From assembly GCF_057098645.1 (NCBI RefSeq), contig NZ_CM169472.1: a stretch of 64,000 nucleotides of DNA; one strand, given 5' to 3'. Position 1 is the first letter of the stretch; every line of letters starts with the position of its first letter. Positions 1 to 3,000 of this stretch are shown piece by piece. Position numbers: made by a program.

Positions 1-3000
1 AGGGTAATCGGCAGATCGCGTAAGGTGATCTCATCCTGTAGCCAGCCGGAGCTAAAATCGATTTTTGCTTGCGGGAAGCCCGTCGTCGCGCCGCCCGGAT
101 GTTGTTCCTGACGATAATACTCACCGCCATATGTCAGTAAGTGAGAAGCGAAACTGTCGGCAAAGAGAGTGGAACGGTTCTCCAGCCTGGCTCCTTTTGT
201 TATCTGTTCACGATACTCGCCGGAACTCTCCGTGTTTTGCGCATTAATACGGACTTCCGACCAATAAATTTTTGCATCTGCATTTAACCAGTCGTTGCCC
301 TGCGGGGCGAGTTTATAAGAAAGCTGCGCATCGCGTTGAATTGTTGAACGATCAACCATCGGGTTGCTGCTTTCAGAAGCCTCAACGGTCTGCGGATTTT
401 TTGGTTCACGCGCGTCGTTGTTGTAGTAACGCACTAAACCGCTCAGAGACTGGGCTGAATCAATTTGCCAGGTCCCTTTCGCCAGCATGTTATTAATGGA
501 CTCGTCATTCGGCGCGGTTTCACCATTGCTCTGGCGTAAATCACCCCGATCGCGACTGGACCAGGCCACACTACCATCCAGATTTTCAGTTCGCCCAAAC
601 GCGCTCGCGCCTAATCCCAGGCTATGGTCCCCCGTGCCGCCAGTACCAAAGACACGAAAACCACTGCTTTGTCCTTCCTGCAATAAATCTTTTGCATCGA
701 CCGTATCGTAGGAGATCACTCCACCCAGCGCGCCACTGCCATACAGTAATGCTGAAGGTCCGCGAACAATCTCAACACGCTTGATCAGCGCCGGATCGAG
801 AAAAGTGCCATTCAGGTGTCCGGTATCCGTTCCCTGACGAATACCATCGACAAGAACCAGCACGCCGCGATGATCATAGCCACGCATATTTACATCCTGA
901 CCGTTGGTTCGTCCGGTACCATCCAGAGTAATTCCAGGAACATGACGCAGCAGATCGGTGGCTGAAGTAGCCGTTTGATTTTCAGGAGCGGAAGTGTCGA
1001 TGACGCTGACCATCATAGGCGCTTCGAAGGAACTACGGGCATTCCCCGTTGCCGTAACGGTCATGGTTTCAGTAGCAAAAGCAAACGTTGGCAAGGTGGC
1101 AGAAACAGCCAAGGCCAACAAACTCAAACGCAACGAGGTAAATTGCGGACGTGACATAGCGATTCTCCATGAGGAAAATAAAAAATGCTGGCTGCCTGGG
1201 TTAATACCGGGGTGGCTGGCGAAAAATAAATTTATTTAAAATTCAGAGCGATAATATTCGCCGGGTGAGTTTACAGGCGTTTATATCCCATGAAATTGCC
1301 TGATAACTCGGCAATTACGCAAAAGCACGCCCTCTTTGTCAGGCAAAACGATATGCCCCATCAGGAGTGAAGAGAGCTGTGCGTTATCCCTTGCAAATGC
1401 TATGGTTTTGTTATCCATATGGTCGTGTTTTGTTAAATGCAAACGTGATAATGAGAATTATTATCGATCAATTTTTTATGATCAAGTTTTTTTTAACCAC
1501 CATTAACACAATAAACAGGGGGTTATGAAACCTATCCTGCGCCCTGTAAACCACCTTGTTTTTATGGTTATCCCCCCATGCCTCATCACTAAATTTTGTC
1601 GTTAACAGTGATAATTTTTTCTTCTCTTTGCTCTGCAAGCCTCGATATCTCTGGGTTCTCAGCTTTTTCCCGCGATGAAATTTAGTCGGTAACAAGAACG
1701 TTAGCTGACGAAGCATCTTGATAAAAATCAAAAATAAATACGCTTGTAACGCCTTGCGTATTGAATCGACGGTTGTATTTCATATATAACTCAAATGATA
1801 ATCATGATCATTCTCAATTTGATAAGAGTTCTCATATTATGCCAAGGATCATCACCAGGCCGTTTCTTTTTTCCCCACTGACGTTATGTATTTCAGCCGT
1901 GGCCTCTGCCGCGAAGAGCACGGTAAAACGAAAAAAATTGTTTACGGCATTACTGGCTCTTAGCTGGGCTTTTAGCGTAACGGCTGCCGAACGTATCGTG
2001 GTCGCAGGAGGATCGCTGACGGAGCTAATCTACGCGATGGGCGCTGGCGAACGCGTGGTTGGTGTCGATGAAACGACATCTTATCCACCAGAAACCGCCA
2101 AACTGCCGCATATTGGCTACTGGAAACAACTCAGCAGCGAAGGCATTTTGTCACTTCGCCCGGATAGCGTAATTACCTGGCAGGATGCCGGGCCACAAAT
2201 TGTGCTCGACCAACTACGAGCGCAGAAAGTCAACGTCGTCACCCTGCCGCGTGTGCCTGCCACCCTTCAGCAGATGTACGCCAACATTCGCCAACTGGCA
2301 AAAACGCTACAGGTTCCTGAACAAGGCGAGGCGCTGGTGACACAAATCAGCCAACGCATGGAGCGAGTACAGCAAAACGTGGCGGCCAAAAAAGCCCCGG
2401 TTAAAGCCATGTTTATTCTCTCCGCAGGCGGAAGTGCGCCACAAGTTGCCGGTAAAGGCAGCGTCGCGGACGCCATTCTTTCGCTTGCCGGAGCAGAAAA
2501 CGTCGCTCCCCACCAGCAGTACAAAAGCTACAGTGCAGAATCACTGATTGCGGCTAACCCTGAAGTGATTGTCGTAACCTCACAAATGGTCGATGGCGAT
2601 ATTAATCGGCTACGTTCTATTGCTGGAATTACCCACACTGCCGCATGGAAAAACCAGCGCATTATCACCGTTGATCAAAACCTGATTCTGGGAATGGGTC
2701 CGCGTATTGCTGATGTCGTTGAGTCTTTACACCAGCAGCTTTGGCCGCAATAAATGGATTTAAATCAGACGAATGAACGCAAATAACCCCCTGGATCTCA
2801 CGCCACATTTTGCTTTAGACGGTGATCAGCCATTTAAAGACAGGCGCGCCATGATGCCGTTTCGTGGGGCCATTCCAGTTGCCAAAGAGCAACTGGCACA
2901 GACCTGGCAAGAGATGATCAATCAAACGGCATCACCTCGTAAGCGACTGGTTTACCTACACATTCCTTTTTGTGCGACACACTGCACGTTTTGTGGCTTT

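What the first reader, a model, noticed from the sequence alone, without database searches (positions are those of the whole stretch)
1158..1838. Divergent chuA-chuT control region with two Fur-box-like sites and a long chuA leader
A 19-bp site at 1447-1465 matches the Fur consensus at 17 of 19 positions, and a second site at 1797-1815 sits just upstream of the chuT ATG, consistent with iron-repressed divergent promoters. The first site lies about 290 bp upstream of the chuA ATG, implying a long 5' leader. Related shuA/chuA leaders are reported to contain a FourU-type RNA thermometer near the SD; a U-rich tract (UUUUUUAUUUUCC) lies just upstream of the chuA SD (GGAGA) here.
Basis: partly seen in the sequence, partly recalled or inferred. 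Interest (0 to 1): 0.35.

Follow-up and report, generated by a model that had tools for sequence, protein, structure and literature searches.

The report
Known chuA–chuT iron/temperature control region
This is the already well-studied iron- and temperature-controlled switch region between the E. coli haem-uptake genes chuA and chuT; the one new point is that its unusually long chuA leader looks like the decayed remains of a small regulator gene (hemP) and still carries that gene's conserved RNA target element.

Summary
The two 19-bp Fur boxes are at 1447-1465 (17/19) and 1797-1815 (16/19). They are the only such sites in 64 kb (chance 0.02). The U-rich tract and SD match Rfam's shuA/chuA FourU thermometer above its curated cut-off.

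A dRNA-seq start site in EHEC Sakai gives a 291-nt chuA leader, which maps to window 1448. 5'-RACE in Shigella puts the shuT start 42 nt before the ATG (window 1797), with the Fur site at +1..+19. The shuT leader is also a thermometer. CyaR, RyhB, Esr41 and Rho act on the chuA leader.

I could not find two further points in the accessible literature.

1. In 65 of 80 related species the same about 290 nt encode HemP. The geometry is the same as in E. coli, and the E. coli leader interior still aligns with hemP (z about 4). The long leader is probably a hemP pseudogene.
2. A bipartite element (1222-1185) with invariant GCCAGCC/CAGCCAGC arms and a covarying inner stem is conserved across Enterobacterales. 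It is absent from Rfam, resembles the HmuP-responsive element, and overlaps the CyaR site.

Verdict: already known and of low interest as stated, with a moderately interesting evolutionary addendum.

The parts
1..1157 (-). 5' part of chuA (TonB-dependent haem/haemoglobin receptor). The ATG is at 1157-1155.
   Evidence: ORF and annotation of the near-identical record.
1155..1186 (-). shuA/chuA FourU RNA thermometer. The stem AUUUUCC (1179-1173) pairs with GGAGAAU (1168-1162), the loop is UCAU, and the SD GGAGA lies at 1168-1164.
   Evidence: Rfam RF02597 at 60.1 bits (gathering score 58), identical to the consensus. Hairpin dG is -8.4 at 25 C, -6.1 at 37 C and -5.1 at 42 C. z = -2.17 against shuffles. 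Mutational proof is in PMC3660397.
1182..1195 (-). CyaR pairing site, GCAGCCAGCAUUUU (leader +254..+267). It is about 14 nt upstream of the SD and overlaps the 3' arm of the conserved element.
   Evidence: This is the best local duplex with CyaR nt 19-34, at -18 to -19 kcal/mol. The CyaR sequence was verified as Rfam RF00112 at 100.7 bits. The published site is described as about 15 nt upstream of the SD (PMC9002310).
1185..1222 (-). Conserved bipartite RNA element (leader +227..+264): UCGCCAGCCACCCCGGUAUUAACCCAGGCAGCCAGCAU. Its arms are GC-CA-GC-CA-CC and GG-CA-GC-CA-GC, around a small covarying stem-loop. It resembles the HPRE.
   Evidence: The pattern occurs once in the window (chance 0.00) and once per locus in 63 of the 80 orthologue loci, always just upstream of the receptor ATG. 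The inner stem covaries: pair 16/28 is GC21/AU20/GU2/CG1/UA1 with 0 unpaired, and 0/500 shuffles reach the score. No Rfam family matches. The motif resembles the C. violaceum HPRE quoted in PMC9131926.
1232..1272 (-). Leader +177..+217. This is the published inhibitory segment and presumed rut site for Rho termination at +271 (window 1178). It overlaps the 3' end of the hemP relic.
   Evidence: Coordinates transferred from PMC9002310 using +n = 1449 - position. Not tested here.
1232..1418 (-). Probable hemP pseudogene (relic), from ATGGATAAC... to ...TCTGAATTTTAAATAA. The residual ORF 1418-1281 is 45 codons long and has no SD.
   Evidence: 65 of 80 orthologue loci carry an intact HemP gene here, and four examples tested match Pfam PF10636 at 56-63 bits. 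The geometry is the same as in those loci. Global alignment to hemP CDSs gives z = 3-5.4. With the ends held fixed the interior gives z = 4.0, with 0/500 shuffles and 0/300 real window segments reaching it. nhmmer gives a collinear hit at 1414-1327 that 0/2000 shuffles reach. The ORF has no Pfam or HMM match as a protein. It differs from the B2 allele by 14 non-synonymous changes against 1 synonymous.
1321..1382 (-). Stable hairpin (+67..+124) followed by UUUU (+125..+128). It coincides with the published Term-seq 3' end at +129.
   Evidence: dG is -24.6 kcal/mol and z = -3.27. The terminator-like scan also hits it. Term-seq +129 is reported in PMC9002310. The pairing is not maintained in E. 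albertii or lineage L054, so its significance is weak.
1447..1465 (.). Fur box 1 (17/19). It covers -17..+2 of the chuA promoter.
   Evidence: The box is invariant in six E. coli alleles. The equivalent box lies at -281..-299 in hemP-bearing relatives.
1448..1485 (-). chuA promoter: -35 TTGATC (1485-1480), 17-nt spacer, -10 AATAAT (1462-1457), and +1 at 1448.
   Evidence: Promoter scan. The +1 is transferred from Sakai dRNA-seq (position 4,391,862, 291-nt UTR; PMC9002310) through the alignment.
1486..1760 (.). Spacer between the two back-to-back promoters. No function was found.
   Evidence: The 87-aa ORF 1468-1731(-) has no Pfam hit and is frame-shifted in other alleles. The spacer resembles only Escherichia sequences. 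There is no Rfam hit and no repeat copy elsewhere in E. coli genomes.
1761..1797 (+). chuT (shuT) promoter: -35 TTGAAT (1761-1766), 18-nt spacer, -10 TATAAC (1785-1790), and +1 G at 1797.
   Evidence: Sequence. The geometry matches the 5'-RACE result and the 62-nt promoter fragment of PMC5458455.
1797..1815 (.). Fur box 2 (16/19), at +1..+19 of chuT. A weaker overlapping site lies at 1791-1809.
   Evidence: The published functional site has three mismatches at +1..+19 (PMC5458455).
1797..1838 (+). chuT 42-nt 5'UTR, the published shuT RNA thermometer. AUUCU (+14..+18) pairs with the SD region AAGAG (+28..+32; 1824-1828).
   Evidence: The fold of 1797-1844 has dG -9.0 at 25 C and -5.8 at 37 C and contains these pairs. 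U15 and U16 are the residues mutated in PMC5458455.
1839..2753 (+). chuT/shuT, the periplasmic haem-binding protein gene and first gene of chuTWXYUV.

Best explanation
The region is the control region of the Escherichia/Shigella haem-uptake (chu/shu) locus. It holds two separate back-to-back sigma-70 promoters whose start sites are 349 bp apart, and each has its own Fur operator.

chuA side. With iron, Fe-Fur sits on box 1, which covers the chuA -10 and +1, and blocks initiation. Without iron, chuA(S) is transcribed with a 291-nt leader. Published work shows several controls on this leader. Rho can terminate at about +271. CyaR pairs at +254..+267 and activates. RyhB and Esr41 repress at the RBS. 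A FourU hairpin (+270..+287) hides the SD at about 25 C and melts at 37 C.

chuT side. Box 2 lies at chuT +1..+19 and blocks transcription. The 42-nt chuT leader is a second, independent thermometer.

The chuA leader is not an invented long UTR. It is the former first gene of an ancestral hemP-hemR(chuA)-hemS(chuS) operon. The Fur promoter is the old hemP promoter. hemP has decayed to non-coding RNA. The conserved hemP-hemR intergenic RNA element (+227..+264) has been kept and now overlaps the CyaR site.
For: Shown by sequence and tools:
- Both Fur boxes are far above chance.
- The promoter hexamers are present.
- The Rfam thermometer hit is above its gathering score.
- The thermometer hairpin is predicted at all temperatures tested (20-45 C) and loses about 2.3 kcal/mol between 25 and 37 C.
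- The chuT UTR fold pairs the SD.
- The window is near-identical to Sakai, so published coordinates can be transferred.

Shown by the literature:
- Fur dependence, the FourU thermometer and the long UTR (PMC3660397).
- The chuA TSS, the 291-nt UTR, Rho, CyaR and the Hfq sites (PMC9002310).
- The shuT TSS, the Fur site at +1..+19 and the shuT thermometer (PMC5458455).

Support for the hemP-relic inference:
- 65 of 80 orthologue loci have an intact HemP gene in the same slot (Pfam hemP in four examples).
- In 25 Enterobacteriaceae loci that carry hemP the Fur box ends at -281..-299 from the receptor ATG; in E. coli it ends at -290.
- Across all hemP-bearing loci the hemP ATG most often follows the box by 22-37 nt; the relic ATG follows by 28 nt.
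- The flanks are homologous, with blastn E down to 1e-16.
- Interior similarity gives z = 4.0, 3.6 and 2.9 with the ends held fixed, and 0/300 real window segments reach the observed score.
- nhmmer gives a collinear hit that 0/2000 shuffles reach.
- The relic is only 75-77% identical between Escherichia lineages, while the element is 87-100% and the thermometer 100%.
- No hemP-like DNA was found in 5,426 E. coli genomes.

Support for the element.
Against: - The start sites were not measured in this strain. They are transferred from Sakai and from S. dysenteriae, and the latter sequence was not aligned here.
- Thermodynamic prediction keeps the FourU hairpin folded even at 42 C, so melting is supported by the published experiments and not by the fold itself.
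- For the relic, protein-level searches find nothing, the nhmmer score is only 4.3 bits (E 0.68 over the whole window), and the relic end-points were chosen after inspection.
- For the HPRE link, the primary paper (Amarelle 2019) could not be read. A secondary source says HPREs are absent from gammaproteobacteria (PMC9241770).
Confidence: 0.9

Rival explanations
1. The long chuA leader has no hemP ancestry. It is an Escherichia-specific regulatory UTR, and its resemblance to hemP in position and sequence is coincidental.
For: The HemP protein profile and Pfam find nothing in any frame. blastn detects only the flanks. The nhmmer hit scores 4.3 bits, E 0.68 over 128 kb. The literature states that the Shigella locus has no hemP homologue (PMC6158557).
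Against: The slot and spacing are the same as in 65 hemP-bearing loci. Interior alignment gives z = 4.0 with 0/500 shuffles and 0/300 genuine window segments reaching it. The ATGGATAA start and the TCTGA..TAAATAA end are recognisable. Xenorhabdus shows a visibly decayed HemP in the same place, so decay in situ does occur.
Confidence: 0.2
2. The 45-codon ORF in the leader (1418-1281) encodes a functional small protein or a regulatory leader peptide. Its translation would modulate Rho access to the downstream rut region.
For: The ORF is open in E-type alleles (45 aa) and B2 alleles (53 aa, as extracted). It ends at +168, just before the published inhibitory and rut segment at +177..+217 (PMC9002310).
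Against: There is no SD before the ATG. The window and B2 alleles differ by 14 non-synonymous changes against 1 synonymous, and the C-terminus is frame-shifted. The start codon is lost in lineage L010 (ATT), where a 125-nt ERIC-like insertion also follows the ORF. There is no family match.
Confidence: 0.05
3. In E. coli the conserved GCCAGCC...CAGCCAGC element is simply the CyaR/Hfq target. It has nothing to do with HemP/HmuP, and its similarity to the HPRE is superficial.
For: CyaR pairs best exactly on the 3' arm, and compensatory mutants support this site (PMC9002310). E. coli has no hemP, yet it keeps the element 100% conserved. PMC9241770 relays that HPREs are absent in gammaproteobacteria.
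Against: The exact proximal CAGCCAGC motif is in 63 of 65 hemP-bearing loci and in 4 of 14 loci without hemP. It is degenerate or absent in Xenorhabdus and in the hemP-less Photorhabdus. Both arms closely match the C. violaceum chuR HPRE (GCAAGCCAGCC / CAGCCAGCCAGC) at a similar distance from the ATG (PMC9131926). The 5' arm and the covarying inner stem are not needed for CyaR pairing, yet they are conserved.
Confidence: 0.35
4. The Fur-box matches are chance products of an AT-rich intergenic region and are not operators.
For: The region is AT-rich, and the consensus is AT-rich.
Against: 0.02 such sites are expected per window from dinucleotide-preserving shuffles, and 2 loci are observed, each exactly over a mapped start site. 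The boxes are invariant across alleles and conserved at the same distance in 80 orthologue loci. Fur dependence is published (PMC3660397, PMC5458455).
Confidence: 0.01

Closest known systems
shuA/chuA 5'UTR FourU RNA thermometer (Rfam RF02597; Kouse et al. 2013, PMC3660397)
   Same: The 32-nt sequence is identical, with the same hairpin occluding the SD and the same position directly before the ATG.
   Different: Nothing differs. This is a member.
S. dysenteriae shuT promoter, Fur site at +1..+19 and 5'UTR thermometer (Wei et al. 2017, PMC5458455)
   Same: The 42-nt UTR, the three-mismatch Fur site that begins at +1, the promoter geometry, and the pairing of U15/U16 with the SD are all as published.
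   Different: The Shigella sequence itself was not aligned here. One allele in E. coli carries a T-to-C change in the UTR.
EHEC chuA 5'UTR regulatory hub: Rho, CyaR, ChiX, RyhB, Esr41 and Hfq (Sy & Tree 2022, PMC9002310)
   Same: The leader has the same length as in Sakai and differs by one substitution. The CyaR site is reproduced computationally.
   Different: That work treats the UTR as non-coding regulatory RNA and does not comment on its origin or on the conserved bipartite element.
Yersinia hemPRSTUV / hmuP'RSTUV operons (Stojiljkovic & Hantke 1992; Jaworska et al. 2018, PMC6158557)
   Same: A Fur box over the -10 of a promoter about 40 nt before the first cistron. The receptor gene lies about 300 nt downstream. 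The same GCAAGCCACCC...GGCAGCCAGC element precedes the receptor SD.
   Different: In Yersinia hemP is intact and the transport genes follow the receptor. In Escherichia hemP is decayed and chuTWXYUV is divergent upstream.
HmuP-responsive element (HPRE) and HemP/HmuP/ChuP post-transcriptional activation (Amarelle et al. 2019; de Lima et al. 2022, PMC9131926)
   Same: GCCAGCC-type repeats lie in the 5'UTR of a haem receptor gene, downstream of hemP and about 26-30 nt before the ATG.
   Different: The Enterobacterales version has a covarying stem-loop between the two arms. HPREs are reported only from alpha- and betaproteobacteria. E. coli lacks the protein partner.

Membership tests
Fur operator (E. 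coli Fur box) | 19-bp inverted repeat close to GATAATGATAATCATTATC | tested here: met
   17/19 at 1447-1465 and 16/19 at 1797-1815, with a chance expectation of 0.02 per window.
Fur operator (E. coli Fur box) | Overlaps the core promoter or start site, so that binding excludes RNA polymerase | tested here: met
   Box 1 covers -17..+2 of chuA and box 2 covers +1..+19 of chuT, using start sites transferred from PMC9002310 and PMC5458455.
Fur operator (E. coli Fur box) | Iron- and Fur-dependent repression, and Fur binding | not testable with these tools
   Published for shuA/chuA and shuT (PMC3660397, PMC5458455).
FourU thermometer / Rfam RF02597 shuA_thermo | Match to the covariance model at or above the gathering score | tested here: met
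   60.1 bits against 58, E 1.3e-8.
FourU thermometer / Rfam RF02597 shuA_thermo | Four consecutive U paired with the SD in a short hairpin next to the start codon | tested here: met
   UUUU at 1178-1175 pairs with GGAGAAU. The MFE hairpin has frequency 0.63 in the ensemble and z = -2.17.
FourU thermometer / Rfam RF02597 shuA_thermo | Translation rises between 25 and 37 C, and stabilising or destabilising point mutants behave as predicted | not testable with these tools
   Shown for shuA and chuA in PMC3660397. Here only dG could be computed: -8.4 at 25 C and -6.1 at 37 C.
HemP/HmuP protein family (Pfam PF10636) | Match to the hemP profile, including the C-terminal GKLILTK motif | tested here: not met
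   The E. coli leader ORFs and all three frames give no match. The neighbours' ORFs score 56-63 bits. The leader is therefore at most a pseudogene and not a member.
HemP/HmuP protein family (Pfam PF10636) | Small gene immediately upstream of, and co-transcribed with, a TonB-dependent haem receptor gene from a Fur-regulated promoter | tested here: met
   The position, spacing and promoter are the same as in 65 hemP-bearing loci.
HmuP-responsive element (HPRE) | Repeated GCCAGCC-type motif in the 5'UTR of a haem receptor gene | tested here: met
   GCCAGCC lies at 1220-1214 and CAGCCAGC at 1194-1187. GCCAGC is 16-fold enriched at -100..-21 of 79 receptor genes. The comparison rests only on the two C. 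violaceum sequences quoted in PMC9131926.
HmuP-responsive element (HPRE) | Expression of the receptor depends on HmuP/HemP acting through the element | not testable with these tools
   Indirect evidence only. The element co-occurs with intact hemP outside Escherichia. E. coli has no hemP.
RfaH-dependent operon (ops element) | GGCGGTAGnnTG in the transcribed leader | tested here: not met
   No match with 2 or fewer mismatches between 1158 and 1838.
Intrinsic terminator / attenuator in the leader | Stable GC-rich hairpin followed by a U tract, conserved among relatives | tested here: inconclusive
   The hairpin at +67..+124 has dG -24.6 and z -3.27, is followed by UUUU, and coincides with Term-seq +129 (PMC9002310). 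The pairing is broken in E. albertii and L054.

The most novel reading that the evidence does not exclude
The 'unusually long' chuA/shuA leader is a fossil. It is the decayed first cistron (hemP) of an ancestral Fur-controlled hemP-hemR-hemS operon, turned into regulatory RNA.

It still carries a structured RNA element that is conserved across Enterobacterales. The element has invariant arms, GC-CA-GC-CA-CC and GG-CA-GC-CA-GC, with tandem C/A mismatches around a covarying stem. It appears to be the gammaproteobacterial counterpart of the HmuP-responsive element.

In Escherichia the protein partner is gone. The element has been kept under selection and re-used as the docking site of the cAMP-responsive sRNA CyaR, and possibly for other functions. 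If so, a heme/HemP input would have been replaced by a carbon-source input.
Probability: 0.55. Interest if true: 0.5.

Novelty: already known. Interest (0 to 1): 0.25.

Why it matters
As stated, the finding only re-identifies a textbook-level virulence-gene switch, so it adds nothing for a specialist.

The addendum would matter modestly, in four ways.
- It explains why chuA/shuA has a 291-nt leader, which is a recurrent puzzle in the papers cited.
- It revises two published statements: that the Shigella locus has no hemP homologue, and that HPREs are absent from gammaproteobacteria.
- It defines a compact, covariation-supported RNA motif, absent from Rfam, in front of haem receptor genes of Yersinia, Serratia, Enterobacter and E. 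coli.
- It gives a directly testable case of a protein-responsive RNA element being re-wired to an sRNA after loss of its protein.

Tried and rejected
- **RfaH/ops.** chuA is reported to be RfaH-influenced, but there is no ops-like sequence (2 or fewer mismatches) in 1158-1838.
- **Leader ORF as a real HemP or small protein.** There is no Pfam hit. A HemP HMM built from 65 sequences scores at or below 0 bits on all frames of nine Escherichia leaders, and the 6-frame window search gave nothing in the leader. Substitutions are 14 non-synonymous to 1 synonymous, with a frameshift.
- **The 87-aa ORF 1468-1731(-) in the spacer.** It has no family match and is not frame-conserved.
- **First global-alignment scoring scheme.** The scheme with free end gaps was uninformative, with scores of about 4. 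I replaced it with true global scoring and an ends-fixed control.
- **Full-length RNAduplex of CyaR against the leader.** This gave meaningless long duplexes no better than shuffles, 53/300. I replaced it with a windowed seed search.
- **Leader hairpin plus U4 as a conserved attenuator.** It is stable in E. coli but not maintained in E. albertii or L054.
- **Other Rfam families.** In 900-2100 at E up to 10 there were only chance hits: snoR25, mir-743 and RUF4. No Rfam hit covers the hemP-hemR element in six other genera.
- **An intact hemP elsewhere in E. coli.** blastn in distant mode with the Citrobacter hemP gave no match in 5,426 genomes.
- **Literature on HPREs.** Amarelle 2010 and 2019 and Stojiljkovic & Hantke 1992 are not held.
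- **Metagenome scan.** I did not run a metagenome scan for the element. An 17-18-base degenerate pattern would give hundreds of chance hits, and a stricter one would only recover Enterobacterales again.
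Full report
**1. What is there**

The window is an E. coli chromosome segment of the O145:H28/O157 lineage. Positions 1000-2000 are 100% identical to many O145 genomes. chuA runs leftwards from its ATG at 1157, and chuT (annotated shuT) runs rightwards from 1839. The 681-bp region between them is the finding.

**2. Check of the observation**

- Site 1447-1465 (GATAATGAGAATTATTATC) has 2 mismatches to the 19-bp Fur consensus.
- Site 1797-1815 (GATAATCATGATCATTCTC) has 3 mismatches.
- At 3 or fewer mismatches these are the only two loci in the 64 kb. 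The expected number from 100 dinucleotide-preserving shuffles is 0.02.
- A third, weaker site (4 mismatches) overlaps the second one at 1791-1809. This is typical of hexamer arrays in Fur operators.
- Window 1155-1186 (-) is identical to the consensus of Rfam RF02597, "shuA/chuA 5' UTR thermoregulator". It scores 60.1 bits against a gathering score of 58.

**3. Mapping onto published experiments**

*chuA start site and leader.* Sy & Tree 2022 (PMC9002310) mapped the chuA +1 in EHEC Sakai by dRNA-seq at 4,391,862, which gives a 291-nt 5'UTR. I fetched that region and aligned it to the window. Over 721 nt there are two substitutions and one 1-nt difference in a poly-A run upstream of the -35, and the leader length is unchanged. 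The +1 therefore maps to window 1448, and leader position +n equals 1449 - n. A sigma-70-like promoter fits this start: -35 TTGATC at 1485-1480, a 17-nt spacer, and -10 AATAAT at 1462-1457. Fur box 1 then covers -17..+2.

*Other features from the same paper.*
- Term-seq 3' ends at +129, +271 and +297 (window 1320, 1178 and 1152).
- Rho-dependent termination at +271.
- An inhibitory, presumed rut segment at +177..+217 (1272-1232).
- An Hfq peak at +160..+200.
- A CyaR site about 15 nt upstream of the SD.
- RyhB and Esr41 acting at the RBS.

*Thermometer.* Kouse et al. 2013 (PMC3660397) showed by RT-PCR that the shuA UTR is 278-342 nt long. They showed by point mutants that the FourU hairpin confers thermoregulation on both shuA and chuA. 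The U 19 nt before the ATG that they mutated is window 1176.

*chuT side.* Wei et al. 2017 (PMC5458455) mapped the shuT +1 by 5'-RACE to 42 nt before the ATG, which is window 1797. They found a functional Fur site with three mismatches at +1..+19, which is exactly 1797-1815. They also showed that the 42-nt UTR is itself an RNA thermometer. Their 62-nt promoter fragment geometry fits -35 TTGAAT (1761-1766) and -10 TATAAC (1785-1790).

*Folding done here.*
- The chuA hairpin is the MFE structure at all temperatures tested. Its dG is -8.4 kcal/mol at 25 C, -7.4 at 30 C, -6.1 at 37 C and -5.1 at 42 C. z is -2.17 against shuffles.
- The chuT UTR pairs AUUCU (+14..+18) with the SD AAGAG. Its dG is -9.0 at 25 C and -5.8 at 37 C.

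Two refinements apply. The promoters are 349 bp apart with separate operators, so this is not one shared bidirectional operator. And chuT has its own thermometer.

**4. Variation among E. coli**

The region is present in 2,236 of 5,426 complete genomes, once per genome, in three allele groups: about 99-100%, about 97% and about 89.5% identical. In an alignment of six alleles the following are invariant or nearly so:
- both Fur boxes;
- both promoters;
- the chuT UTR;
- the spacer;
- the last about 95 nt of the chuA leader.

Leader positions about +5..+200 are the most divergent part of the whole intergenic region.

**5. Why is the leader long? Comparison with other species**

*hemP occupies the same slot in relatives.* A scan of one genome per species with the ChuA N-terminus returned 80 orthologue loci from Escherichia to Yersinia, Serratia, Photorhabdus and Xenorhabdus. 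In 65 of them the stretch directly upstream of the receptor gene encodes a small protein ending in ...GKLILTK. Examples from Kluyvera, Enterobacter, Yersinia and Photorhabdus match Pfam PF10636 (hemP) at 56-63 bits. The exceptions are the Escherichia loci, one locus that lies at a contig end (L069, not evaluable), four Photorhabdus loci and all Xenorhabdus loci. One Xenorhabdus still shows a visibly degenerate HemP ORF.

*The geometry is the same.*
- In the 25 Enterobacteriaceae loci that carry hemP, the best Fur box ends 281-299 nt before the receptor ATG. In E. coli it ends at 290 nt.
- Across all hemP-bearing loci, the hemP ATG most often follows the box by 22-37 nt. In E. coli an ATG (1418, ATGGATAAC...) follows by 28 nt.

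*Only Escherichia has the divergent arrangement.* Only Escherichia has chuT divergently upstream. All the others are hemP-hemR-hemS-hemT in one direction, and their HemT is only about 35-40% identical to ChuT.

*Tests of sequence homology.*
- blastn detects homology only in the flanks: the promoter and Fur box, and the last about 80 nt, with E down to 1e-16.
- Protein-level tests of the interior are negative.
- An nhmmer profile of the Kluyvera/Citrobacter hemP CDS hits window 1414-1327 collinearly. The score is weak (4.3 bits; E 0.68 over the whole window), but 0 of 2000 dinucleotide shuffles of the leader interior reach it.
- A true global alignment of 1418-1232 (187 nt, ATG...TAAATAA) against 64 hemP CDSs gives a median z of 3.1, with values up to 5.4.
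- Because I had chosen the end-points by eye, I repeated the test with the ATG and the last 16 nt held fixed and only the interior shuffled. This gave z = 4.0 (Kluyvera/Citrobacter, 0/500), 3.6 (31 Enterobacteriaceae, 1/500) and 2.9 (33 other genera, 0/500).
- 0 of 300 genuine window segments substituted for the interior reach the real score.

*Further points consistent with a pseudogene.*
- The residual 45-codon ORF has no SD.
- It differs from the B2 allele by 14 non-synonymous changes against 1 synonymous, with a frameshift.
- It is followed by an ERIC-like insertion in one Escherichia lineage.
- This segment is only 75-77% identical between the window and B2, L054 or E. albertii. The promoter is 91-98% identical and the thermometer 100%.
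- No hemP-like DNA exists in the 5,426 E. coli genomes at blastn sensitivity.

*Conclusion.* I conclude with moderate confidence (about 0.7) that the leader is a decayed hemP gene and that the chuA promoter is the old hemP-operon promoter. [quoted passage not shown] I found no paper that describes a relic.

**6. A conserved RNA element between the relic and the thermometer**

*Sequence and distribution.* All hemP-bearing loci, and Escherichia as well, carry a bipartite motif just before the receptor SD. It reads (C)GC[C/A]AGCCACCC - variable - [C/A]AGGCAGCCAGC. In the window it is at 1222-1185 (leader +227..+264). The pattern AGCCACC-N8-32-GGCAGCCAGC occurs once in the window (chance 0.00). 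It occurs exactly once in 63 of the 80 orthologue loci, always on the receptor strand just upstream of the ATG. GCCAGC is 16-fold enriched at -100..-21.

*Structure.* In an alignment of 45 distinct sequences, RNAalifold predicts 2-bp G/C helices separated by 2x2 CA/CA internal loops around a small hairpin. The arm pairs never vary, so they are uninformative. The inner stem covaries strongly:
- pair 16/28 is GC 21, AU 20, GU 2, CG 1 and UA 1, with no unpaired case;
- pairs 17/27 and 18/26 add CG, AU and GU variants;
- 0 of 500 shuffles reach the covariation score;
- sliding the register drops pairing from 93% to 14-46%.

In E. albertii an A-to-G change in one CA loop is matched by C-to-U opposite it, so A.C becomes G.U. 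This hints that the mismatches are real wobble-type pairs.

*Not in Rfam.* No Rfam 15 family matches this element in E. coli or in six other genera.

*Resemblance to the HPRE.* The arms closely resemble the HmuP-responsive element quoted for C. violaceum chuR (CCCGCAAGCCAGCCGACAGCCAGCCAGCG, 26 nt before the ATG; PMC9131926). That paper, citing Amarelle 2019, proposes the element as the RNA target of HemP/HmuP/ChuP. A secondary source relays that HPREs are "absent in gammaproteobacteria" (PMC9241770). The data here suggest otherwise, but I could not read the primary paper.

*Co-occurrence with hemP.* Outside Escherichia the proximal motif tracks hemP. The exact CAGCCAGC is in 63 of 65 hemP-bearing loci and is degenerate in the hemP-less Photorhabdus and Xenorhabdus. 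These counts are not phylogenetically independent.

*Possible reason for retention in E. coli.* Escherichia keeps the element nearly intact without hemP. A plausible reason is its second use. CyaR was verified as Rfam RF00112. Its best local pairing is with GCAGCCAGCAUUUU at +254..+267, the 3' arm of the element. This matches the experimentally supported CyaR site.

**7. Other checks**

- There is no ops element for RfaH in the region.
- The hairpin at +67..+124 followed by U4 is stable (dG -24.6, z -3.27) and coincides with the Term-seq end at +129. It is not maintained in E. albertii or L054, so I do not build on it.
- The spacer 1486-1760 has no detectable feature and is Escherichia-specific.
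- In Enterobacteriaceae other than Escherichia the SD is also sequestered by a U-rich anti-SD, with dG of -7 to -17 kcal/mol. Rfam's narrow model recognises only Escherichia.

**8. Verdict**

The finding is real, correctly interpreted and already known, so it is of low interest as stated.

They are moderately supported, and I did not find them in the accessible literature. They lift the region from ordinary to mildly interesting.

What is shown: the sequence features, their conservation and the covariation. What is transferred from papers: the start sites and the regulators. What is inferred: the ancestry, the identity with the HPRE, and the present function of the element in E. coli.

Noticed in passing
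window 18232-18250 (inside gadA, - strand): The window lacks 787 bp from the middle of gadA, relative to O145 RM9872 and to all the best-matching complete E. coli genomes. Each of these aligns as two pieces spanning 1,588 bp. The loss is not a multiple of 3, so gadA is truncated and frame-shifted here. It could be a real deletion or an assembly collapse between gadA and gadB.
   Followed up: partly
window 46269-47504 (junction at about 46704-46721): Only the C-terminal parts of bcsQ (150 aa, - strand) and bcsE (266 aa, + strand) remain, and they abut each other. The deletion removes the bcs divergent promoter, bcsR and both 5' ends. The same state is annotated as pseudogenes in O145 RM9872. 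It is probably a cellulose-negative genotype.
   Followed up: partly
window 1791-1809: A third Fur-box-like 19-mer (TCAAATGATAATCATGATC, 4 mismatches) lies 6 nt upstream of box 2 and overlaps it. It extends the operator over -6..+13 of chuT.
   Followed up: partly
window 1321-1382 plus UUUU at 1324-1321: A very stable leader hairpin (dG -24.6 kcal/mol, z -3.3) followed by U4 ends exactly where published Term-seq found a 3' end (+129). The published analysis found no intrinsic terminator here. This could be an attenuator or the 3' end of a short 5'UTR-derived RNA. It is not conserved in E. albertii.
   Followed up: partly
window 1487-1494: The poly-A run just upstream of the chuA -35 varies in length between strains: A8 here, A9 in Sakai, and A7G or A8G in other alleles.
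   Followed up: no
L010:2165-2290 approx. (Escherichia sp. MOD1-EC7003): A 125-nt ERIC-like repeat is inserted into the chuA leader right after the residual ORF. In this lineage chuT is not upstream.
   Followed up: no
L007 (E. coli WP4-S17-ESBL-03): IS26 has replaced chuA and most of its leader, up to about window position 1428. chuT and its promoter are left intact.
   Followed up: no
L079 (Xenorhabdus lircayensis), about 100-300 nt upstream of the receptor ATG: A visibly degenerate HemP-like ORF (...IGSQQLLRESYVMKVCYQNGFFRYIRPNPANLF) lies in the hemP slot. The downstream GCCAGC element is also degenerate. This looks like an independent example of hemP decay that leaves a long leader.
   Followed up: no
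L001 (Sakai NC_002695.2 4391572-4392253): The locus tag ECs_4381 is missing between chuA (ECs_4380) and chuT (ECs_4382). An ORF once called in this intergenic region has evidently been withdrawn.
   Followed up: no
window 43268-43284: There is a 6-bp indel relative to O145 RM9872, plus about 25 scattered SNPs across the window. The window therefore comes from a related but different strain.
   Followed up: no
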